32,000 nt of DNA from Vulcanisaeta sp. AZ3. Lineage in GTDB: Archaea > Thermoproteota > Thermoprotei > Thermoproteales > Thermocladiaceae. The notes under the pieces are model-generated. The model was not told the DNA's origin and made no database searches. It saw only the letters and a list, made by a program, of their open reading frames with translations. Below, in pieces: positions 1 to 28,582 of the stretch. The position numbers and the translations under genes were made by a program. Every line of letters starts with the position of its first letter. Positions within the stretch are counted from its first letter, which is position 1. The stretch spans positions 1 to 32,000 of the forward strand of contig JZWU02000002.1 in assembly GCA_000960865.2 (NCBI GenBank), given 5' to 3'.

Positions 1-98
1 AATGAACATTTAGCAATCGAGGTTACAAAATGCCTATCCTTACTCTGCAACCGATTAAGCAAATAATTAGCCAGGTCCATTATCTCCTCTAAACCCAT
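1..98 (-). CDS. hypothetical protein, N-terminal fragment (gene continues off the left edge)
   Basis: The ATG at 98-96 shares one base with the TAA of the upstream ORF (TAATG). The frame stays open to position 1 (MGLEEIMDLANYLLNRLQSKDRHFVTSIAKCS...). No motif recognised. Confidence 0.3.
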   Translation of the reverse strand, partial: MGLEEIMDLANYLLNRLQSKDRHFVTSIAKCS

Positions 99-928
99 TA
101 CCAAATCACCCTCACTCCAGCCTTTGTTAATTCCCGCTTCATATAATCCAAGTAATTCTCAAGCAATTCCTTCGCGGGTAAAATAGTCTCGTGCGAGCTC
201 CTAGACCTCATTACGCATATATCACTAAACCTACAGACTTTACATGAGGTCGTCTTAGTTACCAAGGCACCAATATCACCACCCTCCGCAGCCTTAACCC
301 AAATCTTAAAGGCATATATGACTGGATAACCAACCTCCGGAATCACCTCAATGGGTACTATATTACGTAATATACCATCATTAAGTACCATGTACATAAC
401 ATAGGTATTTTTCTTACCAGCAGCTGAGTAAAAACCAGCCTGTATGAGATCATGCAATAACCTTGTCTTTGTAACCCTACTAATCACAGTCTTAAATTCC
501 AAGTAATAATCACCACAATCCAAGTCCGGCTTCCCCCTCAATGTCCATGAACCATGCACATACATAACCTCAACCCCATCAATACACTTACCACTAAGCC
601 TATTCTTCACCTCCGTGACAGCCAAACTATGTATCATCTTACCTAATAGATGCATTACTATATCACCCCAATCAATACTTGGGGTCCTACCCATTAAATA
701 ATAACTCGGTATTAAGGAGCACTGCGTGAATAAGCCCACTGGCACATTGCCAGGACTTATCTTAACCATGGAGTCCCTTATCTCATTAAAAATAACCCTA
801 CTCAACCCAACCTCCCTATTAACTGCATCACCAACCTCTTTCATTATGCTCGTTATTGAATAACCCTCCCTTACCAATCTCGTTACTTCCCCAACAACAC
901 TCTTTAAGGTATCAGTTAATTGACTCAT
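98..928 (-). CDS. Cas4-like PD-(D/E)xK nuclease with 4Fe-4S cysteines (RecB/DUF83-type), stand-alone
   Basis: Motifs occur in the canonical order: N-terminal Cys (FTQCSLIPSYY), GKMIH, GKPDLD...YYLEFK (D...ExK), LIQAGFY (QxxxY), and C-terminal CKVCRFSDIC (C-x2-C-x5-C). The ORF track starts at GTG 949. I prefer the ATG at 928 because it lies about 28 nt downstream of a TTTAAATAT box. Confidence 0.6.
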   Translation of the reverse strand: MSQLTDTLKSVVGEVTRLVREGYSITSIMKEVGDAVNREVGLSRVIFNEIRDSMVKISPGNVPVGLFTQCSLIPSYYLMGRTPSIDWGDIVMHLLGKMIHSLAVTEVKNRLSGKCIDGVEVMYVHGSWTLRGKPDLDCGDYYLEFKTVISRVTKTRLLHDLIQAGFYSAAGKKNTYVMYMVLNDGILRNIVPIEVIPEVGYPVIYAFKIWVKAAEGGDIGALVTKTTSCKVCRFSDICVMRSRSSHETILPAKELLENYLDYMKRELTKAGVRVIW

Positions 929-951
929 AACGATAACATCGAAAGACACCC

Positions 952-960
952 TTTAAATAT
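952..960 (-). promoter_or_regulatory. TATA-like box for the Cas4-like gene
   Basis: TTTAAATAT in the 46-bp gap between genes, centred about 28 nt upstream of ATG 928. The spacing fits a leaderless crenarchaeal promoter. Confidence 0.35.
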
Positions 961-995
961 CTGTCTAGCTCTAGACTCAATAATATCAACGCCCA

Positions 996-3002
996 TTAAG
1001 TAAGAAAGTATGATCTCTTCATAAAATCCTCATACTGACTAAGCAACTCCTTACTCAATGACGGACGAACCCTACCCAAGGCATACTCAAAATCCTCCCT
1101 CTTAATCATAATCCTCTCATCACCACCCAAAACCCTATCTAAAGCTCTCATCTTAGCCTCCCTAACCAAAGCCGCAATATCCGCACCACAATAACCCTCA
1201 GTCCTATCAGCAATCCAATCAATAACCTCATCCTCAACCACGGCATTCCTAATATGAACCCTTAAAATCTCACGCCTAGCCTCACGATTAGGCGGCGGTA
1301 TATACACAACCTTATCAAACCTACCAGGCCTAAGAAGAGCAGGATCCACAGACCAAGGCCTATTAGTAGCAGCAATAACAATCACATTACCCAACCCCCT
1401 CAACCCATCCATCTCTGTCAATAACTGAGAAATCGCATTAGCCCAAACAATACCCATCGGCGAATCCCTCGGCGGCGCCACGGAATCAATCTCATCAATA
1501 AATACTATCGCCGGAGCATTCTCACGAGCCCTATTAAACGCATCCTTAATAATAGACGCTGCTCTCTCAGGACCCACCCTAGCCAACTCAGCACCACTCA
1601 ACTCCAGGAAATTCGCCTTTAGCATATTCGCCGTAGCCTTAGCCAACAAAGTCTTACCCACACCAGGAGGACCGAAAAAGAGTATCCCGTGAATAGGCTC
1701 AATACCCAACCTCTCCAGAACCTCCTTTTTCTGCATAGACGCAACAACGTACTTATTAATCAAAGCCTTAGCCTCCTCTAAGTCACCAACATCATCCCAA
1801 GTAACCTCCGGAATCCCAACCTGGGGCTTCTCATAAGTCCTAAGCCTATCATACTGAAGCCTAAAGGCTTCATACCTCTCGAGCATGTCATACGTAAGAC
1901 TCGGCTTATACTTACTAATAATTCTCTCAAGATCCTCCTGAGTTATTAACCTCCTCTCCTTAGCAGCCTCAAGAACTGCAGTCCTAACAACATTCATTAT
2001 ATCAGCACCCGTAAACCTATCCGTCAACTTAGCCAACTTAGCATAATCAATAACACCCTGAACAGGCTTCCCCCTAAGCAATGACTCAAATATCCTAGCC
2101 CTAACCTCCTCACTCGGTGGCGGTACGTAAATCACCTTATCAAACCTACCAGGCCTAAGAAGAGCAGGATCAAGTAGGTCTGGTTGATTAGTAGTACCTA
2201 TTATTAATATACTCTCATTACTCTTACTAACACCATCCATTTCACTAAGCAATATATTCAACAGCCTCGGCGTCACATCATCACTCACATACCTAGTCCT
2301 AGCCTTACCAATAGCATCAACCTCATCAATTATAACCACAGACGGCGCATACTCCCTAGCCACCCTAAACAACTCAGAAAGCCTATTCTCACTCTCACCA
2401 TAATACTTACTTAACAATTCACCTAAATTCATTATTATAGTCGTCCAACCCAACCTACCCGCCATCGCCCTAGCAAGCATTGACTTACCCACACCAGGCG
2501 GACCAAAGAATAACACCCCATGTATTGGCATCAACCCATACTTCTGCGATATATTAGCATTCCTAAGCGGCATTAACACTGAAGACTCAATCTCATTCTT
2601 AATATCATCAATCCCAACAGCACTATCCCAATCCCCAGCCATCACCTTTAACTCATCCTTATTCGATATCAATTGATAACCCCGCTCAAGCATTACCATA
2701 GATTTCTTCCTCTCCTCCTCAAACCTAATCTCCACAAGCCTGAAATGCATTATAATCGGGAGTATTGTTAAACTAAGCAGAAGGGCTGGGATCAAACCCA
2801 TAACCAAAGTATTAACATTAATACCCTGATAAAGACTGAAATATGGATTTACATAATAAAGAAGACCAGTTAACAAGGCATAAGCGCCCATAGTACCAAC
2901 AGCCGGTGCAAAAAACCTAACTACATAATTACCATGAGCCCTCAACCTACTCGAAACCACATAAGCGCCATAAGCCGCAAGCGCCATAAGCAGCGGCAAC
3001 AC
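996..3002 (-). CDS. membrane-anchored tandem AAA+ ATPase (CDC48/VCP-like D1-D2 without a CDC48 N-domain)
   Basis: There are two AAA modules with Walker A GPPGVGKS / GPPGVGKT and Walker B IIDEVD / FIDEID. Each is followed by TN..D(L/V)DPALLRPGRFDK(V)(I/V)Y(V/I)PPP. The first ~95 aa are hydrophobic helices (LLTGLLYYV..., LVMGLIPALLLSLTILPIIM). The start is uncertain: GTG 3002 overlaps the upstream ORF by 61 nt, and ATG 2891 is the alternative. Confidence 0.85.
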   Translation of the reverse strand: MLPLLMALAAYGAYVVSSRLRAHGNYVVRFFAPAVGTMGAYALLTGLLYYVNPYFSLYQGINVNTLVMGLIPALLLSLTILPIIMHFRLVEIRFEEERKKSMVMLERGYQLISNKDELKVMAGDWDSAVGIDDIKNEIESSVLMPLRNANISQKYGLMPIHGVLFFGPPGVGKSMLARAMAGRLGWTTIIMNLGELLSKYYGESENRLSELFRVAREYAPSVVIIDEVDAIGKARTRYVSDDVTPRLLNILLSEMDGVSKSNESILIIGTTNQPDLLDPALLRPGRFDKVIYVPPPSEEVRARIFESLLRGKPVQGVIDYAKLAKLTDRFTGADIMNVVRTAVLEAAKERRLITQEDLERIISKYKPSLTYDMLERYEAFRLQYDRLRTYEKPQVGIPEVTWDDVGDLEEAKALINKYVVASMQKKEVLERLGIEPIHGILFFGPPGVGKTLLAKATANMLKANFLELSGAELARVGPERAASIIKDAFNRARENAPAIVFIDEIDSVAPPRDSPMGIVWANAISQLLTEMDGLRGLGNVIVIAATNRPWSVDPALLRPGRFDKVVYIPPPNREARREILRVHIRNAVVEDEVIDWIADRTEGYCGADIAALVREAKMRALDRVLGGDERIMIKREDFEYALGRVRPSLSKELLSQYEDFMKRSYFLT

Positions 3003-3646
3003 ATAAGTACTAGTCCAAGTAGCAAAACCCTAACAGCCGCCTGCCCAAGCCCTGAGAAACCCAGGCTTAAACCACTCAAGGCATTACCCACACTGGCAGC
3101 CGTAAGCGTACTCAGCGGCTGTACTTGACCAGTCACATGGCCAAACCAAGGCATCACTGAGGCATCAGCATTGAGGAGTATTAGAGTCGGAATGTAAAGC
3201 ACTAGGAATGTTATTAATGACTTCAACGGCATCACCCTCCTAGTAACGCCAACCGTAAGACTTGGCGACGTCAGAATTACAGGTATGGACAACACATAGA
3301 ATGCATTAGGCACTATAGACAACTCCCAAGCAAGCATACCAACACCCACACCCAACCAATCAAAAGCCTCAATAAGCACAAGAAGAATCAAAATAAGCAA
3401 CAAAGCACCCAAAGCCGCATACCTATAAACATAGAGCAAAGCCGGTATTAAAATTACAACCATCACCGCAAAGGCAAGCTTCGTACGCCCTGAATAAGCC
3501 AAGGCCGTAGCGACAATAACTATTAACACAGCAACAGGCAATGGATAAAAAGGAAAATCCCACACCAAAGCCATCGCAGAGACTATTAAGTAAAGTACAG
3601 CCGTAAATAACCTCGACATTTCACGCAACGCCCTAGTACTAACCAC
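2942..3646 (-). CDS. polytopic integral membrane protein, unknown family
   Basis: 234-aa ORF with about 6 hydrophobic segments, lying directly upstream of and co-oriented with the AAA+ gene. The last ~20 aa (MCCRCLWRLRLMALMWFRVG) overlap the AAA+ frame and look non-native, so the true 3' end is uncertain. Confidence 0.55.
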   Translation of the reverse strand: MVSTRALREMSRLFTAVLYLIVSAMALVWDFPFYPLPVAVLIVIVATALAYSGRTKLAFAVMVVILIPALLYVYRYAALGALLLILILLVLIEAFDWLGVGVGMLAWELSIVPNAFYVLSIPVILTSPSLTVGVTRRVMPLKSLITFLVLYIPTLILLNADASVMPWFGHVTGQVQPLSTLTAASVGNALSGLSLGFSGLGQAAVRVLLLGLVLMCCRCLWRLRLMALMWFRVG

Positions 3647-3744
3647 ATCACTACCATTATGAGGACCCTTAATAAAATATCAATTAAAATCGCCAATTAC
3701 AACAAAACGAAAACCTCACCTTGAAGAACAAGGAAGAAACTAAC

Positions 3745-4050
3745 CTACTGCGCCTTCTTCTCAGCCCCCTTCTCCTCCGGAACGTTTAGGGTAACCTTCA
3801 CAGTACCATCACTATACTTCGTAACCTTAACCTCAACCCTCCTCGGCGGCTTCTCAATACTCCTCGACCAAACATAATTATTAACATCATTCTCAACCCT
3901 AACCTTACTAGGCTCAACCCTCATATGCCTAGCCACAAAACTCCTAATCAACCTAATGGCATAGGGAGACCTCTTAGTCCTAGAAACCTCCCTAGTCCTC
4001 CTAAGGTTAATCACATAAACTCTCTCAACCTCAACCTTAGCCTCACTCAT
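3745..4050 (-). CDS. rpl31e: 50S ribosomal protein L31e
   Basis: VYVINLRR...[17 protein letters not shown]...[27 protein letters not shown] is the typical L31e core. I prefer ATG 4050 (MSEAKVE) over the track start at 4071. Confidence 0.9.
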
Positions 4051-4083
4051 CAAGGCACAGGAAATGAGCAAGATTAATAAGCA

Positions 4084-4911
4084 TTATTTTTCCCTAAAAC
4101 CACTAAGCAACTCCAGAACCCCAGCCCTAACATAATCCTCATTACCGAACCCCATCACAGTCAATAATTCATAGAGAGACTTAACAGCTGAGGAAACAAC
4201 CAATGGAGTCCTCGTATCCCCAGCAGTCTTAACCGCATAATGCACATCCTTAGCAGCCAAGGCCAACGTGAATGACGGCGATGACCTAGGACTCACCATC
4301 CTATCCAAGTACTTCTCAGCAATCTCCCTAAACACAGTTCTCCTCAGAAGGTCCTTGAGGACACCATCATCAATACCGTAGGTCTTACCAAGCACAACAT
4401 ATTCGCCCAATAAAGCCATTGAACCTATAAGAAATGCATTATAGGCTAACTTCAATGCCATCGCAGACTCAGCAGTTGGCAATCTAATCACAGCACCCAA
4501 CTTATCAAAAACACCCTTAACCCCCTCATAAGTAGCCTCAGAACCCCCAACTAAATACACAGCCGTACCCTTCTCCACATCACCAGGTCCACCAACAACC
4601 GGCGCAGCCAAAAATCCAACACCCGCATCTCTAAGCCTAGCACTAAATGAAGCAACCGCAGCAACACTATATGTACCCGACAAGGCCACAACCTCACCAC
4701 CAACACCCCTAACCATACCTAACGCATTATCATCAGAGACAAAGACAAACACCAAACCCCTAGCTTGAGAAATATCATCAAGAGGCTTAGCCGGTAAGTC
4801 CTTAAGCTTCTCCTTCGTCCTATTCCACGCATACACAGTGAAGCCTTGACTAGCCAACCTCCTAACTAACGCACTACCCATCCTACCCGTACCAACCACA
4901 GTAACATCCAT
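4084..4911 (-). CDS. NAD(P)-dependent oxidoreductase, 3-hydroxyisobutyrate / 6-phosphogluconate dehydrogenase family
   Basis: N-terminal Rossmann motif VTVVGTGRMGSALVRRLASQGFTVYAWNRT. Length and the C-terminal helical domain pattern (ALKLAYN...) fit the family. Confidence 0.75.
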   Translation of the reverse strand: MDVTVVGTGRMGSALVRRLASQGFTVYAWNRTKEKLKDLPAKPLDDISQARGLVFVFVSDDNALGMVRGVGGEVVALSGTYSVAAVASFSARLRDAGVGFLAAPVVGGPGDVEKGTAVYLVGGSEATYEGVKGVFDKLGAVIRLPTAESAMALKLAYNAFLIGSMALLGEYVVLGKTYGIDDGVLKDLLRRTVFREIAEKYLDRMVSPRSSPSFTLALAAKDVHYAVKTAGDTRTPLVVSSAVKSLYELLTVMGFGNEDYVRAGVLELLSGFREK

Positions 4912-4957
4912 ACGATTAGTGAATTCTAGAGCCGAATTAAAAAGTATTATGAATGAA

Positions 4958-5506
4958 TTAACTATTTGATTCAGACCCTTGATTTAAGGATACATTAATC
5001 TTCATTAATGAGAATATATCATCCTCCCTAATCACACTAACACCCGTCGTGCTCGGAAAAACCTCCACCTGTATAACCTTATCAGGATTCTCAAGCCTAA
5101 CCTTATTACTAATCCTAGAGGCTATTGAATCTATAATATCCATCCTATCCAAATCAACACCCCTCTTCCTAACCTCAACCTTATACGTCTCACCAGCACC
5201 CAAGTACCTACCCGCCAAATCAACAGCAGCCTTCGCAATAGCATCCAAGTCCGTCCTAACAGTCCTCATTATAGGAACAACCTTAAGCACAAAACGAGGC
5301 ACATAACGACCACTAACCACTAACTCCTTAACTCTCCTCGTGAATTCCACAGGATCCCCATCAACATAACCAGTTATCAAACCATCAAACCCCGTAAATG
5401 ACGTCTGAGCAATCCTCATACCAATCATATCACCTATATACCTAATCTCATCAGCAGCCCTACCCTCCAACCTCCTCCCTGTGGATATCACAAGGTTAAA
5501 ATCCAT
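4958..5506 (-). CDS. THUMP domain-containing protein
   Basis: About 180 aa. The N-terminus NLVISTGRRLEGRAADEI and the C-terminal half YKVEVRKRG...DIIDSIASRI...ENPDKVIQVEVF match the stand-alone archaeal THUMP pattern. Confidence 0.6.
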   Translation of the reverse strand: MDFNLVISTGRRLEGRAADEIRYIGDMIGMRIAQTSFTGFDGLITGYVDGDPVEFTRRVKELVVSGRYVPRFVLKVVPIMRTVRTDLDAIAKAAVDLAGRYLGAGETYKVEVRKRGVDLDRMDIIDSIASRISNKVRLENPDKVIQVEVFPSTTGVSVIREDDIFSLMKINVSLNQGSESNS

Positions 5507-5609
5507 AACAAAAACTCAACACCCCAACCTAAACACTAATTTATAAACCACACCTATTTCGAGATTATTAACACCCTTAATCCTACAGCGAATCAACAAA
5601 AGGTAATGC

Positions 5610-5618
5610 TTTTAAGAT
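5610..5618 (+). promoter_or_regulatory. TATA-like box upstream of the acidic micro-ORF
   Basis: TTTTAAGAT centred about 31 nt upstream of ATG 5645, in an otherwise unassigned 289-bp intergenic region. Confidence 0.3.
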
Positions 5619-5644
5619 AAGCAATTAAGACTCAACGATCAAGC

Positions 5645-5752
5645 ATGAACAGACTACTTATGGAGGAAGAGGAATGGGGTGAAGGTGAAGGAGAAGGAGA
5701 AGAGGAAGAGGAATGGGAAGAATTCGAAGAGGAATGGGAGGAAGAATTATAA
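5645..5752 (+). CDS. candidate micro-protein (35 aa), extremely acidic: MNRLLMEEEEWGEGEGEGEEEEEWEEFEEEWEEEL
   Basis: ATG...TAA ORF below the ORF-track size cutoff, read by hand. It is a GAA/GAG/GGT-rich patch on a strand that is otherwise G-poor, with a TATA-like box at the right distance. It lies on the opposite strand to both neighbours. Confidence 0.3.
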   Translation: MNRLLMEEEEWGEGEGEGEEEEEWEEFEEEWEEEL

Positions 5753-5795
5753 TCATTATTAAACACAACCCATTAAAATAGAAAACCCACCCACT

Positions 5796-7001
5796 TCACA
5801 CCTCAGCATAACTCAATTGACTAAGCACATAAGCCCTAACATCACTATCACTCGGCATAGACTCAACAGCCTTACCATCCTCCACAAACCTCCTCAAAAG
5901 AGGCACAGGCCTAGAATTATCCGGACAAGGTGCAGGCTCCGAATCCCAGGGAACAACCTGATCATTAAGCGTATCCCCACACCTATAAACCTGCTTAAAG
6001 CCCGGCAACTTACCACGCTTTGTAATTGGAACCCAACGACTACTCTTCTCATCATAAGCCTCCACAATATCCATACTAATATCAACACTCGGCGGGAAGG
6101 CTATTGAAGTGCCAACGCCGAGCATATCCACAATATCCCTAAGCCTAACAACCTCATCCTCATCCACACCACCACTAACAACAATCTTAACATTCCTATA
6201 CCCAGCCAAATCAAGAGTCCACCTAACCTCACGCACAATAGCCTCCATACTACCACGCCTACTACTCGGCGTATCAAGCCTAACACCAAACAACCTATCA
6301 CCAAGCAACTTAGCAGCTAACATAGACTCTTCACGCTCGTCAAAGAAAGTATCAGCCAAAACAATCCTAGGAACACCACTCGGCATCACCTTATCAAACC
6401 ACACCCAAGCCATCGTATGATCCCCAACAGCATGCCTAAACACAATCATTAACGCATGAGGCATCGTACCACTCGGCTCAATACCAAGCAACTTAGCCCC
6501 AATCACACCCGCAACACCATCACAACCACCTATATACGCCGCCCTATCAACCATAGGCTGAACTGCTGGATGAACAACCCTAGCGCCAAAGAATAGACAG
6601 ACCTTATCACCAGCAAGCCTCTTTATCCTAGCAGCCTTAGTAGCCACTGAACTATAATGCCTCAATATACCTAGAAATGTAGTTTCATAAACAGCAAAAT
6701 CAACATAATTCCCCTCAACCACCATAACAGGCTCACCAGCCTTAAACAAAGTCCCCTCAGGCATCGCATATATAGTCACAGGCAACTCCTTAGCCGTCAC
6801 CAAATTAACAACCTCCCTCAAACCAGCAAAAACAGCCCACTTATAATCCCTGGGTAAATTAACAACATGAAACTCAGCCCTAACCCTAACCCTATCAAGA
6901 CCCGCAGCCTTAAGAACATCAACAGTCCTATTGAAATAAATATCCGTAGCCTCACCATTAAGAATCTCCTCATCCCTAGCAACATAAAACAACCTATCCA
7001 T
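5796..7001 (-). CDS. pncB: nicotinate phosphoribosyltransferase (archaeal type)
   Basis: [14 protein letters not shown]-terminus, [10 protein letters not shown] motif, [10 protein letters not shown] and VSGG(V/L)DE are typical of the NAPRTase family. I prefer ATG 7001 ([11 protein letters not shown]...); the Cys/Trp-rich track extension to 7112 looks non-coding. Confidence 0.8.
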
Positions 7002-7108
7002 TGATCGAAATAGGCACCAGCAAATTTTAAGCTCTACACTGCAAAAACTGCCATGACAAACAGAAACTGCACTATTAATTTTTAAGAAACAACCACCTAA
7101 CCACTCAA

Positions 7109-7294
7109 TCACGCAGCCTTATACTTCCCATCAGTCTTTACTACCTTCCCATCCTTCACTAACCTCGTCAACTGGGCCTTAACAACATTAAGCCTCTCCT
7201 CACCAACAGCCCTCGCTATCTCCTCAACAGCAAACTCCTTATCCTTATTACCCGTAAGATAATCCAGAATCTTCTTCTTTATACCCTCGACCAT
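7109..7294 (-). CDS. small winged-helix DNA-binding protein (61 aa)
   Basis: [47 protein letters not shown] has the helix-turn-helix plus wing pattern. It has its own TATA box (7317-7324). Confidence 0.5.
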
Positions 7295-7316
7295 ACAATA
7301 TGAAAGTATTTTCTAG

Positions 7317-7324
7317 TTTTTAAA
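7317..7324 (-). promoter_or_regulatory. TATA box for the wHTH gene
   Basis: TTTAAAAA on the minus strand, centred about 27 nt upstream of ATG 7294. Confidence 0.4.
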
Positions 7325-20705: not shown

Positions 20706-21380
20706 ATGAAAGTAATAGTTGCGCCGGGGCCTGTCTCATACCCATTAATAATGGCTACTAGGGTGATTAGGGATTTGGAGCTTGTTTTTGGTAAGGAGGG
20801 TAAGGATGCCTATGCTGTGGCTGATTCCCTTGTATCTCTGGCAAGGAGGGGTCTTAGGCCGAGTGTGGTGACTGTTAGGAGGTTATTAGTAATATACCCG
20901 GAGCTTAGGGGTCCGAATGTTGGTGTTTGGCGTAGGGGTAGTGCGGCTGATGTGTTGATTAGGGCGTATGCGGATAGACTTGGGTTTGGTGGGTTGAATT
21001 TTGTGTATGCTGATGATTGGTATTCATTAAATGATATGTTTAGGTCTGGGCAGGTTCAAAGTGTGGTTCTCAATAAGGCTCTTGTGGATGGTGGCTTGTC
21101 TCTTGAGGATGCCTTAGATTTACCGGGTGCCTGTGGTATATATGTAAATGGTGATTTGCAATACATAATCGATGCGTATGAGGCGGGTATTGAGTTGGTT
21201 AGGGAGGATCCGGAGGGATCTGCTGAGTATATTGCTAGTAAGTTGCCGATTAGGATTCCAAGGGAGTTTATTGTGAATGTACTTAGGAGGGTTGAGTATG
21301 GAATATTTAAACCGAGTATAGATAGTGTGGATAGGTTAATAAGTATTGTTAATAGGTATGGCGTCACCGGGTATGAGTAG
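20706..21380 (+). CDS. hypothetical soluble protein, possibly a periplasmic-binding-protein-like fold
   Basis: 224-aa ORF with normal composition whose 3' end overlaps the MFS gene. No catalytic motif recognised, and the fold suggestion is weak. Confidence 0.5.
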   Translation: MKVIVAPGPVSYPLIMATRVIRDLELVFGKEGKDAYAVADSLVSLARRGLRPSVVTVRRLLVIYPELRGPNVGVWRRGSAADVLIRAYADRLGFGGLNFVYADDWYSLNDMFRSGQVQSVVLNKALVDGGLSLEDALDLPGACGIYVNGDLQYIIDAYEAGIELVREDPEGSAEYIASKLPIRIPREFIVNVLRRVEYGIFKPSIDSVDRLISIVNRYGVTGYE

Positions 21381-22545: not shown

Positions 22546-22578
22546 TAATTATCTTTACATCAGTGATTCTTTGTGTCA

Positions 22579-23271
22579 ATGCTTGGTTATGTGGTTAGGA
22601 GGCCTGATGTTGTTGGTGTGTTTGTGAGGAGGTTGAATAGGTTTGTGGGTGTTGCTGTTATTAATGGTGAGGAGGTTATGGTTCATATTCATGACCCGGG
22701 TAGGTTGCAGGAATTATTGAGGCCTGGTGTTAGGATTTATGCCTATGAGAAGAGTGGTGGTAAGACTAGGTATTACTTAGTGGCTGTGGATTTAGGTGAT
22801 GAACTTGTGCTTGTGAATTCGGCGATACATAATGACATCGCGTCCTGGCTTATTAGTAATGGTTTTGTCTTGAGGGATTATCGAGTGGTTAGGAGGGAGC
22901 CTGTGTTTGGTTCGGGTAGGTTTGATTTATTGTTAAGGTCGCCAATGGGTATGGATGCCTTTGTTGAGGTTAAGGGTGTTACATTGGAGGTGAATGGTAT
23001 TGCCGAGTTCCCTGACGCTCCTACGCAACGTGGTGCCCGTCACATGATGGAGTTGGCGAGGGCTGTGGGGCTTGGTTATGAGGCTTATGTGTTATTTCTC
23101 GTGCTTAGGTCGAGGGCTTTTGTGTTTAGGCCTAATGAGGCGCTTGATTCTAGGTTTGCTGAGGCGTTTAGGTTTGCGATGAGCCATGGTGTGAATGCAG
23201 TGGCTTATAAGTTAGTCTTGGGTCGGGATTGGGTGTTGAGGCCTGTGGGGCCCTTGAGGGTTGAGTTTTAG
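22579..23271 (+). CDS. sfsA: SfsA-family nuclease (sugar fermentation stimulation protein homologue)
   Basis: [76 protein letters not shown]. The start is ATG 22579 or GTG 22573. Confidence 0.85.
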
Positions 23272-24609
23272 TTATTTAGCTTCGGGGGTGAGTATGTAGG
23301 TGTTTACGTTGGTTCTTGGAGATAATTCGTTGGAGATTGGTGTTAGCATTAATCTCTTAACCTCATTCATATCTCTTGTTTGTGCTAAGACCCATGATAA
23401 CTTAACAAATGCTACCTCTGGTATCATGTCTTCGGCTGGTATTACGCCTAGCGTTAGTAATTCTACGCCTCTTCTGTATACGTTTAGGTTTACTCTTCCG
23501 AATATTGTTTGACTCGTTATAACTATGGGTATGCCATTCTCGATGGCTCTCCTTATTGGATCGAGTAGGGGTTCTCTAACGTGGCCGAACCCTGTGCCTT
23601 CAATGACGATTCCGTGGTATCCCTTATCAATTAGGTGGTGAAGTATTTCTGGGTCCATGCCTGGGTAGAATTTGATTAGTGCGACTTTATCGTCGAATTT
23701 ATTCATGAGTATTGTATCCTCAGCCTTGGACTTGACTTGGTAATTGTTTGTATTGAGTTTGATCTCGAGTTTGTTAATGTCTACGTAGGCCACGGGCTCA
23801 TCATTAATACTTATGAACGCGTCTCTCCTTGAGGTGTGCATTTTCCTAACCCTGGTACCCCTATGCACTGCTATTAAGCCATCATTGGTTGAGGCATGCA
23901 TAATCACGAAGGAGCCTGCAAAGGGGGCGCGGGCGCCCACAAGCACAGCTGCAAGCATATTCTCAAAGGCATCGCTGGATGGCCTATCACTACTCCTCTG
24001 GGAGCCGACCAGTGCGATGGGGCCTGCTGGATTTCTAATGGCAAATGAGAGAGCCGCTGCTGTGTAGTGCATTGTGTCTGTTCCGTGGAGTATAACCACG
24101 CCGGACACGCCTTCCATGAAGGCCTTGTATGTGGCTTCTGCGATTTGGCTCCATCCCTGTGGTGTCATGTCCTCGCTGAAAATTGCCATTAGGTTTAGTA
24201 GCTCCACGTCCGCGATGCTCCTAATCTCTGGGTACATGGCGTATAGGTCCTCGAGGCTGAAGCTTGGGTAGACGGCGCCTGTCCTATAATCGACCTTAGA
24301 CATTATTGTGCCGCCGGTTGCCACTAGTCTAACCCTGGGTAATCCCGTGCTTTCAGCCTTTATGAAATGGCCAATGGGTATTGATGTAACGCCCTTGGAT
24401 TCAATGTGTCTCATTATTTCAACTCTATCGATATTGCTTACGTGAATACCTACGTTATAGCCATTATCGAGCTTGAGAACCATTATGTTAGGATCACCAA
24501 CACCTGGTTTTGGCAGGACAATGCCTCTTAGTGTTGTGCCGTCCTTTAGGTGAATATTAATGTCGTCAAACTCCCTAATCCCGTGCTTGTCAAGGAATTC
24601 ATTAAGCAC
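23272..24609 (-). CDS. gatD: Glu-tRNA(Gln) amidotransferase subunit D
   Basis: An N-terminal GatD-specific domain is followed by an asparaginase fold: ATGGTIMSKVDYRTGAV, ILHGTDTMHYTAAALSF, GSQRSSDRPSSDA, IVIEGTGFGHV. No gatE is adjacent. Confidence 0.85.
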   Translation of the reverse strand: MLNEFLDKHGIREFDDINIHLKDGTTLRGIVLPKPGVGDPNIMVLKLDNGYNVGIHVSNIDRVEIMRHIESKGVTSIPIGHFIKAESTGLPRVRLVATGGTIMSKVDYRTGAVYPSFSLEDLYAMYPEIRSIADVELLNLMAIFSEDMTPQGWSQIAEATYKAFMEGVSGVVILHGTDTMHYTAAALSFAIRNPAGPIALVGSQRSSDRPSSDAFENMLAAVLVGARAPFAGSFVIMHASTNDGLIAVHRGTRVRKMHTSRRDAFISINDEPVAYVDINKLEIKLNTNNYQVKSKAEDTILMNKFDDKVALIKFYPGMDPEILHHLIDKGYHGIVIEGTGFGHVREPLLDPIRRAIENGIPIVITSQTIFGRVNLNVYRRGVELLTLGVIPAEDMIPEVAFVKLSWVLAQTRDMNEVKRLMLTPISNELSPRTNVNTYILTPEAK

Positions 24610-24641
24610 GGTATTCCTATCATGGCAATTGGTTAATAATT

Positions 24642-25007
24642 TTACTCATTTGGTGCTAGGTCTAGTAGCATGTTTATGACCTTGTTGTCGCGCTCTGTTG
24701 AGTGTCTGGTGATTATTATGTACTTGAGTTTGGATAGGGCGTAATCGCTGAGTAGGCCGAAGCCGTTACGTGAGATGCATAGGACTTTTTTACCACTGGC
24801 TAGGGCGTAATCAACCTCTGTCTGATCGCCCACATTTCTCAGTATTATTACATTTACGCCATCTTGTTCGACCACGAGTTCATCATCCTTAACAAGTAGT
24901 AGTGCGCATTCGCCAGGTTTTAGGTCTATTAATACTTTGTCTAGGTCGTTGTAATCGTTTATTCTGACGATCCTAACCATACCGAGACTTATGTACGGAC
25001 TAAGCAT
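24642..25007 (-). CDS. hypothetical protein (112-121 aa)
   Basis: ORF with globular composition directly upstream of gatD (32-nt gap). ATG 24980 (MVRIVRINDY...) is an alternative start. No family recognised. Confidence 0.45.
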   Translation of the reverse strand: MLSPYISLGMVRIVRINDYNDLDKVLIDLKPGECALLLVKDDELVVEQDGVNVIILRNVGDQTEVDYALASGKKVLCISRNGFGLLSDYALSKLKYIIITRHSTERDNKVINMLLDLAPNE

Positions 25008-25080
25008 TTAGTACCCATACTCAAAATAACTAGTAAGCCTAATAACCCACTGATGGCCTTAAAAGGAAACATGATGAGTA

Positions 25081-25536
25081 ATGACCTCAACACTTTGTAA
25101 AGTGCCTGTGAGGTATGAGTATGGTGAGCACACGGCGGATATTTCCGTGATAGCCTATGGATGTACTCTAGAGGAGGCATTTGTGAATGCAGCTTTGGGT
25201 GTTGCGAACTTGACGTATTATACAGATAGGGTTGAGCCTAGGGAGTATGTGGAGGTTAGGGTTAGTGGTGATGATTTAGAGCAACTTCTTTTTAATTGGA
25301 TAGATGAGTATATATTTTTGTTTGACGGTAGGAAATTTGCCTATGGGGATTATTTTAAGGATATTGCGTTAGAAGGGAGTGGGCCTTATAGTATTAGGGC
25401 TTTGGTTGGTGGTGAGCATTTCGATATTAATAAGCATGGTTATAGGGGCTTGATTGTTAAGGCTATGACTTACAATATGATGGAGATAAGGAAAATTAAT
25501 GATTATTGGAGGCTCGTATTTGTGGTGGATATATAA
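25081..25536 (+). CDS. archease
   Basis: [30 protein letters not shown]..., [22 protein letters not shown], and [12 protein letters not shown]...WRLVFVVDI match the family signature end to end. Confidence 0.9.
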
Positions 25537-25545
25537 TAAGGTTAA

Positions 25546-25560
25546 TTTTAAATTTTTATA
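25546..25560 (+). promoter_or_regulatory. A/T-rich TATA region for the small-membrane-protein operon
   Basis: TTTTAAATTTTTATA lies 21-35 nt upstream of ATG 25581, just after the archease stop codon. Confidence 0.35.
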
Positions 25561-25580
25561 CGGTGATTATTACTTCAAAT

Positions 25581-25808
25581 ATGAAGCGAGAGGTTAGTAT
25601 TGCTTTGATTATTATTGGTGTTGCTCTTCTTCTATTTGCATCTGTACTTGCATATTATGAGTTAATCCAGGGAGTGACTATACCACAGCCGCCAAGTCTT
25701 GAGAGTGTTTTGTATGTGCTTGCTGTGGTTACGTATAAGGTTGCGTTTATATCCGTAATAGCTTGGTCTGGTGCGTTATTGATTACTAGGGGGTTGCAGA
25801 ACTTATGA
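25581..25808 (+). CDS. small membrane protein (75 aa, 2 TM)
   Basis: MKREVSIALIIIGVALLLFASVLAYY... plus a second helix VAFISVIAWSGALLI. I prefer ATG 25581 over the track start at 25506, which lies inside archease. Confidence 0.5.
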   Translation: MKREVSIALIIIGVALLLFASVLAYYELIQGVTIPQPPSLESVLYVLAVVTYKVAFISVIAWSGALLITRGLQNL

Positions 25809-26146
25809 GGGTTGTCATATTCCTGGCCTTATTGGCGTTGATTATAACTATCGTTGTCTTGGTGATGTCTGTATCTATGATTAATAGTTTCGGGAGTTAT
25901 GTTAGGGCTGGTGTTTACTCGATGGGTAATAGGTATTATTTATCGCTTAATGTGACTAATCCATTACCACTGCCAATAATATTGGCAATAGTCCAGGGGA
26001 ATGAGTCTATGCAGGTAGTGATACAGCCGTATGGGCATGGTAATGTGGATTTTCCGCTGGTGAGTTTAGAAATTCCTTTAAGGGTGATGATTGAGGTGCC
26101 TGGTGTCTTTAATGCCACGTATGTGGTGACTCTCAATGAGGGTTAG
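25805..26146 (+). CDS. membrane-anchored protein (113 aa, N-terminal TM plus beta-rich ectodomain with NxT/S sequons)
   Basis: ATGA overlap with the upstream ORF. N-terminal anchor VVIFLALLALIITIVVLVMSV; sequons NVT, NES and NAT. Confidence 0.5.
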   Translation: MRVVIFLALLALIITIVVLVMSVSMINSFGSYVRAGVYSMGNRYYLSLNVTNPLPLPIILAIVQGNESMQVVIQPYGHGNVDFPLVSLEIPLRVMIEVPGVFNATYVVTLNEG

Positions 26147-26537
26147 GGATAGGTTAATTAATGGTGCATTTAATGCGGTTACTGACCTTCTATTCCTAAT
26201 ACTAATGCTCATACTATATGCCTTACTAAGCTCATTCCTAATGCACACAACACCAAACATACTAGCGCTAATTCAAGAGTACATTGTGTTAATATTGGCT
26301 TTTGCGATCATAGCCTTCCTTAGGGGTGCTTTGGCGGGGCACGTGTTGGTTTACCCAGTGTTACTTGGGGAGTTTATGTTGGTGACTGCGATTTTTGTCT
26401 CTGTGCCAAGCACAATGATTGTTCATGGGGTTTTGGTGAATGTACAGCCAATAATTTATTTTGTATGGGCTATTGAGGCTGCGTGGATTGTGTACTCAGT
26501 AATCAATCAACTTAATGAAATGATTAAAGATCCCTAA
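26136..26537 (+). CDS. small membrane protein (133 aa, about 4 TM)
   Basis: Overlaps the upstream ORF by 11 nt and has four hydrophobic segments. Confidence 0.5.
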   Translation: MRVRDRLINGAFNAVTDLLFLILMLILYALLSSFLMHTTPNILALIQEYIVLILAFAIIAFLRGALAGHVLVYPVLLGEFMLVTAIFVSVPSTMIVHGVLVNVQPIIYFVWAIEAAWIVYSVINQLNEMIKDP

Positions 26538-26538
26538 C

Positions 26539-27764
26539 TCAACGTAGTGCCTCCTCAATCCTTAACGCCAAATCCTTAATCAACTTACTCATTAGGAATT
26601 GTGAAGCCCTTTCCCTGGCATTTCTACTCATTGCGTCTCTCTCCTCTGGGTGGTCGAGGAGTCTCTCCACAGCTTTGGCGGCGCCCTCAATATCGTCAAG
26701 TCCATTGACGTGTATTCCATCAATGCCATCCCTAATAACCCATTTCTGTCCGTAAATGGCTGATGTTATTACTGGAACGCCGCCGTACATGAACTCTAGT
26801 TGTGTTAGGCCTAGGGCTTCCATTTTACTCATTATTATGTTGACGTAGGATTCCTTAATCAATTTCTTCTTATCCTCAACACTTAACTCGTTTGTTAATG
26901 TGACGTTGCTTAACCCACGGGATTCCCTAACAACCTCATTCCATTGATCGCCTGGCTTGCCTGCAATTACGAAGTGAACATCGCGTCTATGCCTAAGTAT
27001 TTTAGCAACTTGAACAACAGCTAGTGGGTTTTTCTTTCTTCCACTGTACCTAGGTATGCAATGATTTTGTCATCATCTGGTATTCTATACTTAATTCTAA
27101 AGTCGCTCGAGTCAATTGCTCCCAGGTCGGAAACCTCATCATCGTCGATGCCTCCTGGAAATACGTATATCTGCTCAGGCCTAGCGCCCATCCTAACCAT
27201 CTCCTCACCCTCAATGGGTGTAACGCATAGGATTAAGTTGGCGGCCTTGAATATCTCGGGGAATGCCATGTGGTTCCAAGCAAGTCTATACGTCCTCTCC
27301 ACAACATCATACCTAGTTGGGTCTGGTGGCTGGTAATGACTCATATGTGCATAGAATATACTGCCGGACTCTAGACTAAAGGTTGTTAGCATTCTCCTCC
27401 ACATTACGTACTTAGCAGTGTCCTCGGGGCCGTTCCATAGTGTTGAGTGTGTTATTAAGGCATTGACGTTAAAGTTCTCGTTAATCCTCCTAAGTATGTC
27501 CACGAAATTCTTAAACATTATTCTCCTGGGAGGCCATTTGGCCATGTAACTATCAACCCTAATGGTGGGTAGGTTTATGGTTCTATCCTTTTCTTGAAAT
27601 ATGTAGCCCTCGAGTGATGTCTCTACAAGTCTTCTCTTAATGGCTTCATTACCATCATGATAAATGCTCGTTATTAAGTAAGCCTCATACCCAAGCCTAA
27701 GAAACCACTTAACCATCCTCTGGGCCACTAGTTCCTGCCCCTTGGAGTTACTTGTTTGATACAT
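26539..27764 (-). pseudogene. GT1/GT4-family glycosyltransferase interrupted by a single-base frameshift
   Basis: The N-terminal ORF (27021..27839, likely ATG 27764) ends ...IIAYLGTVEERKTH*. The C-terminal frame is open from about 27060 and reads ...KKNPLAVVQVAKILRHRRDVHFVIAGKPGDQ...EALGLTQLEFMYGGVPVITS...DGIDGIHV. Adding one A to the A5 run (T5 at 27029-27033 on +) gives the continuous sequence ...GTVEERKNPLAVV..., which is the normal GT4 junction. Confidence 0.7.
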
Positions 27765-27783
27765 TATTACTCCAACAATCGGC

Positions 27784-28497
27784 TTAACCACCACTCCCAC
27801 CTTCCTTACCCTTTTGTTGCCGACCCCACTCCTGCTCAAGGAATCTCCTTAGGGGTTCTCTGAGGGGTACTGCGAGGACGAGGCCAATGGCTACGCCAAG
27901 CCCTATGGCGACTGCCCAGGCGAGTCCTTGGGCGAATATGTAGAGTATTTCTACGTTAACCTTCATTACGCTTAGGGCTATGGTTATCACCATGTAGTAA
28001 AGAATGAATCTAAAGGCATCGCCAACAAAGTTCAGTAGTGTTTGGGTGTATTGATCATTAGTTGGGTAACTGCGTTTGAAGTAGTCGCTTATCCAATCAA
28101 CCATTATTAAACCAATAATTAAAATTATAATACCAGACACGAGGTATGGTAGGTATGAGAGAACACTTCTTGATGTGTCGTAGAGAAATGATAGATTTGG
28201 ACTTATGTATGATAGTTCGAGGAGTGCGTAGAAAATGGCAGCTATGTAAATAATCCACTTAACAAAGAGGCCTAGGAAGTCACCTGCTGTATAACCGCTC
28301 CTCAGGAGTGCGCGGCCTACGGAGGTTTTCCTAAAGAAGGCATCTAGGCCTGTGGTGTAGGAGATCTTCTTTATGAGTATTTCCACTAGTCTGCCGATTA
28401 CATAACCGACAATGATTATTATGACCGCGGTTAATACAGTGTAGAATGTGCCTTGCGGGATGAAGCCTAATATTCCTGTTGTTTGATTTGTGCTCAT
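27784..28497 (-). CDS. integral membrane protein with repeated TM-helix modules (MscS-N-terminal-like 'conserved TM helix' type)
   Basis: Four or five TM segments alternate with amphipathic loops, and the tail is basic and Gly-rich. The family call is weak. Confidence 0.45.
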   Translation of the reverse strand: MSTNQTTGILGFIPQGTFYTVLTAVIIIIVGYVIGRLVEILIKKISYTTGLDAFFRKTSVGRALLRSGYTAGDFLGLFVKWIIYIAAIFYALLELSYISPNLSFLYDTSRSVLSYLPYLVSGIIILIIGLIMVDWISDYFKRSYPTNDQYTQTLLNFVGDAFRFILYYMVITIALSVMKVNVEILYIFAQGLAWAVAIGLGVAIGLVLAVPLREPLRRFLEQEWGRQQKGKEGGSGG

Positions 28498-28582
28498 TTA
28501 TTAATTAATTATTCATTGTCCTTTTAAGGCTTCCATACGTATTAACAATATTACCGCTATTGAGGCTAATTTTAAGGGAAAA

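What the first reader, a model, noticed from the sequence alone, without database searches (positions are those of the whole stretch)
1..28500. Extreme, orientation-independent strand asymmetry: + strand A/C-rich on the left, G/T-rich on the right
I counted bases by hand in 60-nt samples, given as A/C/G/T. On the left: 481-540 = 20/20/5/15; 2001-2060 = 20/20/5/15; 8001-8060 (a + strand gene) = 27/15/8/10; 11461-11520 (a - strand gene) = 35/22/1/2. On the right: 15421-15480 (- strand gene) = 8/5/16/31; 19021-19080 (+ strand gene) = 4/5/26/25; 22601-22660 = 7/3/25/25; 24701-24760 = 13/7/20/20. Sample GC skews therefore run from about -0.3 to -0.9 on the left and from about +0.5 to +0.8 on the right, far above what prokaryotic chromosomes normally show. 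The sign is the same for genes of both orientations, so this is not coding-strand purine loading. It changes the proteins. Genes whose sense strand is the G/T-rich one (UbiA, CPBP, Ogt, SDR, SfsA, the permease) are V/G/L/R/F-rich. Genes on the A/C-rich sense strand (MBL, DUF62, MoaD-like, aminotransferase, 17298-18020) are N/K/T/I/P/H-rich. Joint depletion of C and A on one strand is the signature of deamination (C to U, A to hypoxanthine) on a strand that spends time single-stranded. Vertebrate mtDNA shows this, and bacterial leading strands show it more weakly. At hyperthermophilic temperatures the effect could be very strong. A practical consequence is that the T-poor strand has few stop codons, so the ORF track contains dozens of long spurious antisense ORFs.
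Basis: partly seen in the sequence, partly recalled or inferred. Interest (0 to 1): 0.75.

Follow-up and report, generated by a model that had tools for sequence, protein, structure and literature searches.

The report
Local extreme strand-skew domain, archaeal chromosome
In the hot-spring archaeon Vulcanisaeta sp. AZ3, about 30 kb of ordinary housekeeping genes has had its neutral sites driven almost entirely to G/T on whichever strand runs outward from one exact point inside a gene, a mitochondrion-like mutational footprint that I found described for no archaeal chromosome and that probably marks a fixed start site of DNA synthesis.

Summary
At fourfold-degenerate sites the + strand is 11% G+T from 1 to 12.9 kb and 84% G+T from 12.9 to 23 kb, whichever strand the genes are on. 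The sign flips within about 20 nt at position 12,897, inside an intact pilin-like gene.

It is not a chromosome-arm property. The skew fades to nothing by about 30 kb on the right and is already weakening at the left end. The next 6.5 kb, read from a sister contig, is unskewed.

The source is the MAG Vulcanisaeta sp. AZ3. Six relatives with the same gene order show no such skew, so the domain arose in this lineage. Three assemblies carry it, so it is not an artefact.

AZ3-branch changes are mostly C>T and A>G on the outward strand, with A>T and C>G also in excess and no sequence-context preference. Orthologous proteins have shifted in amino-acid composition.

Best reading (about 0.5): a fixed, origin-like initiation point whose outward 5'->3' strand is repeatedly left single-stranded at high temperature and damaged. 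No ORB repeats or Orc1/Cdc6 gene lie in the window, but V. moutnovskia synteny places one about 17 kb away.

I found no literature report of such a domain.

The parts
1..12897 (.). Left arm. The + strand is A/C-rich, so the - strand, which runs 5'->3' away from the centre, is G/T-rich. The core runs from about 1 kb to 12.9 kb and weakens in the leftmost 1 kb.
   Evidence: Fourfold G+T fraction on the + strand is 0.04-0.22 per kb from 1-13 kb and 0.34 in kb 1. It is 0.32-0.36 in the 1.3 kb beyond the window on sister contig L065.
12895..12914 (.). Switch point of the asymmetry (best estimate 12,897).
   Evidence: Likelihood change-point on all sites, 2-lnL support 12,895-12,914. Third codon positions of the host gene are 54/60 A/C before it and mostly T after it.
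12723..13277 (+). Archaeal type IV pilin-like gene that contains the switch. It is intact and conserved in relatives.
   Evidence: Pfam Pilin_N and NCBIfam archaellin/pilin N-terminal domain. It aligns with the V. distributa and ENA-contig orthologues, and its promoter region is conserved.
12605..12722 (.). Divergent intergenic region between the CPBP and pilin-like genes. AZ3 lacks about 1.7 kb here (a Zn-ADH gene plus a small membrane-protein gene) that relatives carry.
   Evidence: ORF and gene tables of L001, L002, L148, L149 and L150.
12898..23271 (.). Right arm core. The + strand is G/T-rich.
   Evidence: Fourfold G+T 0.836 overall, peaking at 0.93 at 16-18 kb, with - strand genes at 0.929 and + strand genes at 0.782.
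23272..30000 (.). Right arm tail, a gradual decay to parity.
   Evidence: Per-kb fourfold G+T of 0.81, 0.74, 0.73, 0.69, 0.68, 0.63, 0.53.
30001..32000 (.). Unskewed flank, which serves as the internal control.
   Evidence: Fourfold G+T of 0.45-0.46. It continues unskewed for 6.5 kb more on the sister contig L066.
15429..15432 (.). Site where the sister strain (JGI contig) carries a 2.4-kb insertion that is not skewed, although it sits in the most skewed zone.
   Evidence: Alignment of the window to L064 and the L064 composition (GC skew -0.01 to -0.09, AT skew about -0.06 across the insert).
7465..10818 (.). Five-gene block (MBL, DUF62, Ogt, MoaD-like, Cgi121-like) inverted relative to V. moutnovskia, yet carrying the skew of the arm it now sits in.
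   Evidence: Gene order in L152 compared with the window; fourfold counts.
10822..10912 (-). tRNA-Thr (GGU), probably intron-containing, 2 kb from the switch. Its sequence is conserved despite the skew.
   Evidence: Rfam and ARAGORN; 79% identity to V. distributa.

Best explanation
The domain is a mutational footprint. Shown: a roughly 30-kb domain, specific to the AZ3 lineage, in which neutral sites have drifted almost to fixation for G/T on whichever strand runs 5'->3' away from position 12,897. Both arms are about 15-17 kb long and fade smoothly. Inferred: DNA synthesis starts recurrently at that point and moves outward in both directions. This could be an origin-like initiation site, either a true chromosomal origin or a non-canonical initiation (strand-displacement, recombination-primed or RNA-primed). 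The strand that runs 5'->3' outward is the lagging-strand template or the displaced strand. It is left single-stranded long enough at about 85-90 C to suffer cytosine and adenine deamination and depurination. Copying the damaged strand fixes C>T, A>G, A>T and related changes on it. The effect fades with distance either because the outward synthesis stops at variable distances, or because fork direction becomes less certain further from the start point. The process appears to be still running.
For: Geometry: a knife-sharp sign change at 12,897, with two arms of similar length that decay monotonically. Polarity: the G/T-rich strand is the 5'->3'-outward strand on both sides. That is the strand exposed at outward-moving forks, and it matches the polarity at bacterial origins and of the displaced mtDNA H strand (established knowledge). 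Neutral-site origin and orientation independence. Spectrum on the AZ3 branch at codon positions 1+2, written on the G/T-rich strand: C>T 225 vs G>A 77, A>G 150 vs T>C 63, A>T 59 vs T>A 23, C>G 55 vs G>C 28. At third positions 70-72% of ancestral C and A have changed against 23-25% of G and T. There is no neighbour-base preference, which argues against a targeted deaminase and for spontaneous damage. Time dependence: a recent 2.4-kb insertion is unskewed, and the most conserved gene, probably recently replaced (isochorismatase, 87-90% identical to V. distributa), is the least skewed in the core. Ongoing activity: among polarised singletons in three AZ3 strains, 9 are A/C to G/T and 5 are the reverse, a per-site ratio of 3.0, p=0.04. 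Origin context: in V. moutnovskia the syntenic left arm runs on to an Orc1/Cdc6 gene that would lie about 17 kb from the switch. In the Thermoproteales species Pyrobaculum calidifontis only one of the four mapped origins is placed next to a cdc6 gene, and origins in Thermoprotei are often next to tRNA genes (PMC4009838). A tRNA lies 2 kb from the switch.
Against: No Orc1/Cdc6 or WhiP gene, ORB-like repeats, AT-rich unwinding element or notable inverted repeats lie at the centre. The switch is inside a coding sequence, which is unusual for an archaeal origin. A normal origin should give asymmetry over hundreds of kb rather than 15 kb, so an extra assumption is needed: abortive or short-range synthesis, or otherwise random fork direction. 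Nothing was inserted at the centre in AZ3 that could explain why this lineage alone shows the effect; the only nearby change is a 1.7-kb deletion. Single-strandedness and initiation are inferred, not observed. Skew polarity relative to replication is not uniform in archaea: it is reversed at third codon positions in Haloferax volcanii (PMC12999951).
Confidence: 0.5

Rival explanations
1. Recombination or break hot spot. A site-specific double-strand break or paired nicks at about 12,897 is repaired again and again. Long 5' resection is followed by fill-in of the outward 5'->3' strand by a low-fidelity polymerase with a G.T-mispair bias, or break-induced replication leaves the nascent outward strand single-stranded.
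For: The sharp point and the two decaying arms resemble a tract-length distribution. The resynthesised or nascent strand is the G/T-rich one. SNP clusters that look like recombination tracts, a 1.7-kb deletion and an insertion polymorphism all lie in the domain.
Against: If damage to the surviving 3' tail after ordinary 5' resection were the cause, the polarity would be the opposite of what is seen (inference). The asymmetry in A>T is not what G.T mispairing predicts. No endonuclease, homing element or palindromic target lies at the site.
Confidence: 0.13
2. Import. The roughly 30-kb segment was brought in by homologous recombination from an unsampled Vulcanisaeta lineage whose whole genome is hyper-skewed around an origin at this locus. 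The domain looks local only because the flanks are native.
For: There are step-like changes at some gene boundaries, for example 0.12 to 0.34 at about 975. Recombination tracts are visible between strains.
Against: A search of 5.8 billion proteins found nothing between the AZ3 cluster (100%) and the unskewed OSP_8 lineage (83%) for the aminotransferase. The in-domain proteins place AZ3 normally within Vulcanisaeta, with a branch only about 15% longer than that of V. distributa. The decay on the right arm is smooth over 12 kb. This reading only moves the unexplained hyper-skew to another genome. My attempt to compare out-of-domain proteins failed.
Confidence: 0.1
3. Two-way replication fork barrier or fixed termination point at 12,897, in an organism where the mutational skew has the reverse polarity to bacteria.
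For: A sharp switch is also typical of termini and dif sites. Reversed third-position skew at an origin is reported for Haloferax volcanii (PMC12999951). A probable orc1/cdc6 gene sits at about the left edge of the domain.
Against: The chemistry of single-strand damage fixes the polarity as outward, not inward. The skew is weakest, not strongest, toward the putative cdc6 side. No dif-like inverted repeat is present.
Confidence: 0.07
4. Whole-replichore asymmetry of a generally skewed hyperthermophile genome with its origin at 12.9 kb, which is what the first reader implied.
For: The polarity and the sharp switch.
Against: The skew vanishes by about 30 kb and stays absent to 38.5 kb. It is already halved at the left end. 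Relatives at similar growth temperatures lack it.
Confidence: 0.05
5. Transcription or R-loop driven asymmetry from the divergent CPBP and pilin promoters, or selection for polar sequence motifs, or an assembly or sequencing artefact.
For: The non-template strand of outward transcription would be the G/T-rich one. About two thirds of the coding length points away from the centre.
Against: Genes on the opposite strand carry the same or stronger skew. The first 175 nt of the pilin gene, downstream of its promoter, still carry the left-arm composition. The T-rich + strand of the right arm should terminate archaeal transcription (inference). Saturation at fourfold sites is not what motif selection gives. 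Three assemblies, intact ORFs and conserved synteny exclude an artefact.
Confidence: 0.05

Closest known systems
Replication-associated GC/TA skew switching at bacterial and some archaeal origins (Lobry-type skew; Pyrococcus oriC)
   Same: The sign change occurs at a point. The sequence of the outward (leading) strand is G- and T-rich. The skew is visible at synonymous sites.
   Different: The magnitude is close to saturation (fourfold G+T 0.04-0.11 against 0.93). The extent is only about 15-17 kb per side instead of a whole replichore. It is confined to one lineage of a genus. No ORB or Orc1 gene is adjacent, and the switch is inside a gene.
Vertebrate mitochondrial H/L strand asymmetry (strand-displacement replication, gradient with time spent single-stranded)
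   Same: C and A are jointly depleted on the exposed strand. Fourfold sites are almost saturated. The skew declines with position. Encoded proteins shift in amino-acid composition (compare PMC2779903).
   Different: This is a segment of a cellular archaeal chromosome, it is bidirectional from an internal point, and it is embedded in unskewed DNA.
Skew jumps and N-domains at eukaryotic replication origins (human, yeast; compare PMC3459929)
   Same: An abrupt upward jump occurs at an initiation site, and the skew decays as fork direction becomes less certain over tens of kb.
   Different: Eukaryotic amplitudes are far smaller (from my own knowledge). Here only a single isolated domain is seen.
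Strand-coordinated mutation clusters at breaks and break-induced replication (kataegis; PMC6786661)
   Same: Damage to long single-stranded DNA, with a strand switch at the initiating lesion and tracts of many kb.
   Different: Those are single somatic events with a deaminase sequence context. Here there is an evolutionary steady state and no context preference. The polarity is opposite to that expected from ordinary resection.
Transcription-associated mutational asymmetry (G+T excess on the coding strand)
   Same: The same base classes are enriched.
   Different: That asymmetry follows gene orientation. This one does not.

Membership tests
Archaeal chromosomal replication origin (oriC) | Initiator gene (orc1/cdc6 or whiP) adjacent to the site | tested here: not met
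   No such domain was found in any ORF of the window. An Orc1/Cdc6 gene lies about 17 kb away by V. moutnovskia synteny, which could not be verified in AZ3. Adjacency is not universal in Thermoprotei (PMC4009838).
Archaeal chromosomal replication origin (oriC) | ORB or mini-ORB repeats flanking an AT-rich unwinding element in an intergenic region | tested here: not met
   There is no enrichment of the Sulfolobus mini-ORB consensus (3 hits against 9.7 expected, none near the centre). No meaningful direct or inverted repeats lie around 12.9 kb. The switch lies in coding DNA. The Vulcanisaeta ORB sequence is unknown, so this test is weak.
Archaeal chromosomal replication origin (oriC) | Skew polarity switch of origin type | tested here: met
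   The cumulative keto and GC skew minima fall at about 13.17 kb and the AT skew maximum at 12,895. The likelihood change-point is at 12,897.
Archaeal chromosomal replication origin (oriC) | Copy-number peak or initiation intermediates (marker frequency, 2D gels, RIP mapping) | not testable with these tools
   This needs read mapping or a culture.
mtDNA-like single-strand-exposure asymmetry | C and A both depleted on one strand at fourfold sites, irrespective of gene orientation | tested here: met
mtDNA-like single-strand-exposure asymmetry | Excess of C>T and A>G on the exposed strand | tested here: met
   The per-site excess is 2.8-fold for both transitions at codon positions 1+2. Transversions toward G/T are also in excess.
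mtDNA-like single-strand-exposure asymmetry | Skew graded with position (exposure time) | tested here: met
   There is a monotonic decline on the right arm and weakening at the left edge. The form of the gradient is confounded by gene-specific codon usage.
Transcription-associated strand asymmetry | The sign of the skew follows the transcribed strand of each gene | tested here: not met
   Genes of both orientations share the sign of their arm.
Enzymatic (AID/APOBEC-like) targeted deamination | A neighbour-base motif at mutated C | tested here: not met
   C>T frequency is 0.45-0.73 in all 5' and 3' contexts, and TC is among the lowest.
Assembly chimera or sequencing artefact | The junction is unsupported by other assemblies or by synteny | tested here: not met
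   The same sequence occurs in the NCBI MAG, a JGI metagenome contig and Logan contigs at 99.5-99.9% identity. Gene order across the switch is conserved in V. distributa, JCM 14467 and the ENA contig L149, and OSP_8 keeps Kae1 next to the Zn-ADH gene.

The most novel reading that the evidence does not exclude
AZ3 has evolved a site-specific process that repeatedly generates 10-15 kb of single-stranded DNA in both directions from one nucleotide position in its chromosome. Candidates are a cryptic or hyperactive origin that fires abortively, strand-displacement or recombination-primed initiation, or initiation driven in trans by an extrachromosomal element. At hyperthermophilic temperature this turns the locus into a mitochondrion-like mutational domain. 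Such a process has not been described for cellular chromosomes, and here it is recorded at nucleotide resolution in the sequence itself.
Probability: 0.35. Interest if true: 0.9.

Novelty: new variant of a known kind. Interest (0 to 1): 0.8.

Why it matters
Mutational strand asymmetry is weak or absent at neutral sites in most archaeal chromosomes (PMC12999951). This has made archaeal origins hard to see and has left the intrinsic strand asymmetry of archaeal DNA synthesis unmeasured.

This locus shows that in a hyperthermophile the asymmetry can reach the level seen in animal mitochondria. It starts at a single nucleotide-resolution point and ends within about 15 kb.

If the cause is an initiation site, the sequence gives the start point, the polarity and the range of a DNA-synthesis process in an uncultured archaeon. 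It also gives a natural experiment on heat damage to single-stranded DNA and on how far mutation pressure can remodel essential proteins such as Kae1, GatD and UbiA.

There are practical consequences too. Such domains produce spurious antisense ORFs, distort codon-usage and composition-based binning, and can mislead phylogenies built from the affected genes.

Tried and rejected
1. A genome-contig scan and a metagenome-contig scan with Kae1 found no close relative of AZ3. The nearest was 78-86% identical and unskewed.

2. Polarising fourfold-site changes with two outgroups failed because the sites are saturated: the derived base is independent of the ancestral base. I used codon positions 1+2 instead.

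3. L003, an archaeal MAG with AT skew of +0.5 next to Kae1, looked like a second case. It is ordinary A-rich coding-strand bias with all genes on one strand.

4. Weak skew around Kae1 and the pilin-like gene in relatives is gene-specific codon usage, not a positional effect.

5. Searches for Sulfolobus mini-ORB, dif-like palindromes, long flanking repeats that could allow excision, and Rfam families found nothing relevant.

6. PHROGs and NCBIfam scans of the hypothetical proteins found no replication or mobile-element function.

As a result the AZ3 orc1/cdc6 locus and out-of-domain divergence could not be examined.

8. A viral-contig scan with the switch sequence found no match.

9. SNP density between strains is about 4-5 times higher inside the domain than outside, but the numbers are too small and are confounded by recombination clusters.
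Full report
**Observation**

The sliding profile shows GC skew of -0.2 to -0.56 and AT skew up to +0.61 on the left. The signs are opposite on the right, and the change falls near 12.9 kb.

I built a gene model from ORFs and Pfam hits. The genes are ordinary crenarchaeal housekeeping genes: a CDC48-like AAA ATPase, L31e, THUMP, NAPRT, an MBL-fold protein, DUF62, Ogt, a MoaD-like protein, UbiA, CPBP, a pilin-like protein, Kae1, isochorismatase, a class-III aminotransferase, SDR, CitMHS, DUF3834, MFS, SfsA, GatD, archease and CoxLMS.

At fourfold-degenerate sites the asymmetry is close to saturation, and it follows position rather than gene orientation:
- Left core (996-12,897): A964 C461 G81 T103.
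- Right core (12,898-23,271): A128 C116 G461 T783.
- Left arm G+T fraction: + genes 0.077, - genes 0.127.
- Right arm G+T fraction: + genes 0.782, - genes 0.929.

Intergenic DNA shows the same direction of skew.

**Shape of the domain**

A likelihood change-point places the switch at 12,897, with 2-lnL support of 12,895-12,914. This is inside the pilin-like gene at 12,723-13,277. Its third codon positions are 54/60 A/C before that point and mostly T after it.

The per-kb fourfold G+T fraction on the + strand runs as follows:
- 0.04-0.22 from 1 to 13 kb, and 0.34 in the first kb.
- 0.82-0.93 from 13 to 19 kb.
- Then 0.84, 0.76, 0.78, 0.79, 0.81, 0.74, 0.73, 0.69, 0.68, 0.63, 0.53, 0.45 and 0.46.

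A sister contig extends the right flank to about 38.5 kb and shows no consistent skew there. Another extends the left side by 1.3 kb and gives intermediate values of 0.32-0.36.

The feature is therefore a bounded, roughly symmetric domain of about 15-17 kb on each side. It is not a pair of chromosome arms.

**Source and authenticity**

Exact protein look-ups identify the MAG Vulcanisaeta sp. AZ3, on a contig of 96,655 bp. Near-identical DNA (99.5-99.9%) is present in a 78-kb JGI metagenome contig and in Logan assemblies of SRR18215007.

The JGI strain carries a 2.4-kb insertion at 15,429-15,432, in the most skewed zone, and that insertion is unskewed. This excludes a sequencing or assembly cause. 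It also shows that the skew is acquired with residence time.

**Lineage specificity**

The locus is syntenic in V. distributa JCM 11216, V. sp. JCM 14467, V. distributa DSM 14429, Vulcanisaeta sp. OSP_8, an ENA contig and partly V. thermophila. The left arm is syntenic in V. moutnovskia.

None of these is hyper-skewed:
- Per-gene fourfold G+T on the locus + strand is 0.25-0.74, and the variation tracks the kind of gene (for example membrane proteins) rather than position.
- The largest 1-kb |GC skew| is 0.30 and the largest |AT skew| is 0.31.

The nearest relative in 5.8 billion proteins is 83% identical. Nothing is inserted at the centre in AZ3. The only local difference is the loss of about 1.7 kb (a Zn-ADH gene and a small membrane-protein gene) between the pilin-like gene and CPBP.

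**Substitution pattern**

Fourfold sites are saturated against outgroups. I therefore used sites where all relatives agree and AZ3 differs, writing bases on the strand that is G/T-rich in AZ3.

| Codon positions 1+2 | Count | Complementary change | Count |
|---|---|---|---|
| C>T | 225 (14.6% of C) | G>A | 77 (5.1% of G) |
| A>G | 150 (8.9% of A) | T>C | 63 (3.2% of T) |
| A>T | 59 | T>A | 23 |
| C>G | 55 | G>C | 28 |
| G>T | 47 | C>A | 31 |

At third positions 70-72% of ancestral C and A have changed, against 23-25% of G and T.

C>T shows no neighbour-base preference. The spectrum fits spontaneous damage to an exposed strand: deamination, plus depurination followed by bypass of the abasic site. 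It fits a sequence-specific deaminase or simple G.T misincorporation less well.

Proteins have shifted accordingly. UbiA is 56% FLVGCW against 37% in V. distributa. Kae1 is 29% KNTPHQ against 21%.

The AZ3 amino-acid branch is only about 15% longer than that of V. distributa. This is expected once neutral sites are at equilibrium, because flux is then limited by the slow reverse rate.

Among three AZ3 strains, polarised singleton differences in 19.3-26.5 kb are 9 toward G/T and 5 away from it. That is a per-site ratio of 3.0 with p=0.04, so the process is probably still active.

**Mechanism**

On both arms the damaged strand runs 5'->3' away from 12,897. Several outward-moving processes expose that strand:
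- the lagging-strand template of outward forks;
- the displaced strand of outward strand-displacement synthesis;
- the nascent strand of break-induced replication;
- the non-template strand of outward transcription.

Transcription is excluded for two reasons. The skew is independent of gene orientation, and the first 175 nt of the pilin gene keep the left-arm composition.

Ordinary 5' resection at a break predicts the opposite polarity if damage to the surviving tail is the cause. It can be rescued only by assuming error-prone fill-in synthesis.

I therefore favour a fixed, origin-like initiation point with short-range or abortive outward synthesis. An alternative version is a site where fork direction is certain only locally. 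My confidence is about 0.5.

Context for the origin reading:
- In V. moutnovskia the left-arm gene order continues to an Orc1/Cdc6 gene. That would place it about 17 kb from the switch, near the left edge of the domain.
- In Pyrobaculum calidifontis (Thermoproteales) only one of the four mapped origins is placed next to a cdc6 gene, and origins in Thermoprotei are often next to tRNA genes (PMC4009838). A tRNA-Thr lies 2 kb from the switch.

Evidence against the origin reading:
- There are no ORB-like repeats, no unwinding element and no initiator gene in the window.
- The switch lies in coding DNA.
- There is no explanation of why only AZ3 shows the effect.

**Rivals kept open**
- A break or recombination hot spot.
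- Import of the segment from an unsampled hyper-skewed donor.
- A two-way fork barrier with reversed skew polarity, as reported for third positions in Haloferax volcanii (PMC12999951).

The replichore-wide reading, transcription, selection and artefact are contradicted by the data above.

**Novelty**

Full-text searches on Vulcanisaeta and skew, AZ3, archaeal strand asymmetry, strand-coordinated hypermutation and fourfold-site skew found no description of such a domain. A 2026 survey of archaeal skews reports that third-position and non-coding skews correlate poorly with gene-strand bias in archaea, unlike in bacteria (PMC12999951).

The kind of phenomenon is known: strand asymmetry around an initiation point caused by damage to single-stranded DNA. 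Its local, near-saturated and lineage-specific form in a cellular chromosome is new. I class it as a new variant of a known kind and score interest at 0.8.

**Limits**
- I could not read the rest of the AZ3 contig or MAG, so I do not know whether other such domains exist or whether orc1/cdc6 is really adjacent.
- Read depth and population variants were not available.
- One homologue search was wasted.

Noticed in passing
window 15429-15432; L064 6570-8886: The JGI sister strain carries a 2.4-kb insertion (MFS-like 237 aa plus two small ORFs) between the aminotransferase and isochorismatase genes. It is unskewed. Relatives carry a TPR gene at the same spot, so this intergenic site is a hot spot for gene turnover.
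   Followed up: partly
window 12605-12722: AZ3 lacks the Zn-dependent alcohol dehydrogenase and a small membrane-protein gene that sit between the pilin-like gene and CPBP in four other Vulcanisaeta genomes. The deletion junction is within about 300 bp of the skew switch.
   Followed up: partly
L152 13834-15027 (V. moutnovskia CP002529): An Orc1/Cdc6 gene (397 aa) lies four genes beyond the orthologue of the gene just left of the window. By synteny it would be about 17 kb from the switch in AZ3.
   Followed up: partly
window 5645-5752 (+): A 35-aa acidic ORF (MNRLLMEEEEWGEGEGEGEEEEEWEEFEEEWEEEL) lies over a purine-rich tandem repeat. It is G-rich on the strand that is otherwise G-depleted, so it resists the local skew. 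It is indel-polymorphic between strains, and a gene was called here on the JGI contig.
   Followed up: no
window 996-3646 (-): The CDC48-like AAA ATPase is split into two overlapping ORFs in different frames: a 234-aa membrane N-terminal part and a 668-aa AAA part. V. moutnovskia has a single 885-aa protein, so AZ3 has a frameshift or pseudogene at about 2,942-3,002.
   Followed up: no
window 26539-27839 (-): A glycosyltransferase is split into an N-terminal GT4 fragment and a C-terminal GT1 fragment, so it is probably a pseudogene. A dense SNP cluster between strains lies at 27,069-27,320.
   Followed up: no
window 4168-4456 and 15112-15404: There are dense clusters of differences from the JGI strain (14 and 22 SNPs), almost all transitions, against a background of about 1 per kb. 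They look like recombination tracts.
   Followed up: partly
window 14744-15328 (+): Isochorismatase is the least skewed gene in the core (fourfold A9 C16 G21 T41) and the most similar to V. distributa (87-90% amino-acid identity). This is consistent with recent replacement by recombination.
   Followed up: partly
window 7465-10818: The block MBL, DUF62, Ogt, MoaD-like and hyp173 is inverted relative to V. moutnovskia but carries the skew of its present arm. Either the inversion predates the build-up of the skew, or it happened in the V. moutnovskia lineage.
   Followed up: partly
window 10297-10818 (+) and 13272-14315 (-): The 173-aa hypothetical protein weakly matches the KEOPS subunit Cgi121 (NCBIfam E=6e-6, below the curated cutoff). 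It lies 2.5 kb from Kae1, the catalytic KEOPS subunit.
   Followed up: no
window 13321-13343: A perfect 9-bp hairpin (CCATGGTTC TTTTT GAACCATGG) followed by T-rich sequence lies just downstream of the pilin-like gene and inside the 3' end of Kae1. It is terminator-like.
   Followed up: no
window 98-949 (-) and L065 1110-2015: These two conserved Cys-rich hypothetical proteins (283 and 301 aa) sit at the left edge of the domain and are less skewed than their neighbours. The 283-aa protein weakly resembles Cas4-type nucleases (PHROG E=5e-4).
   Followed up: no
L003 1-4000: An unrelated archaeal MAG contig next to its Kae1 gene has AT skew of +0.5 to +0.6. This is ordinary A-rich coding-strand bias with all genes on one strand, not the phenomenon described here.
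   Followed up: yes
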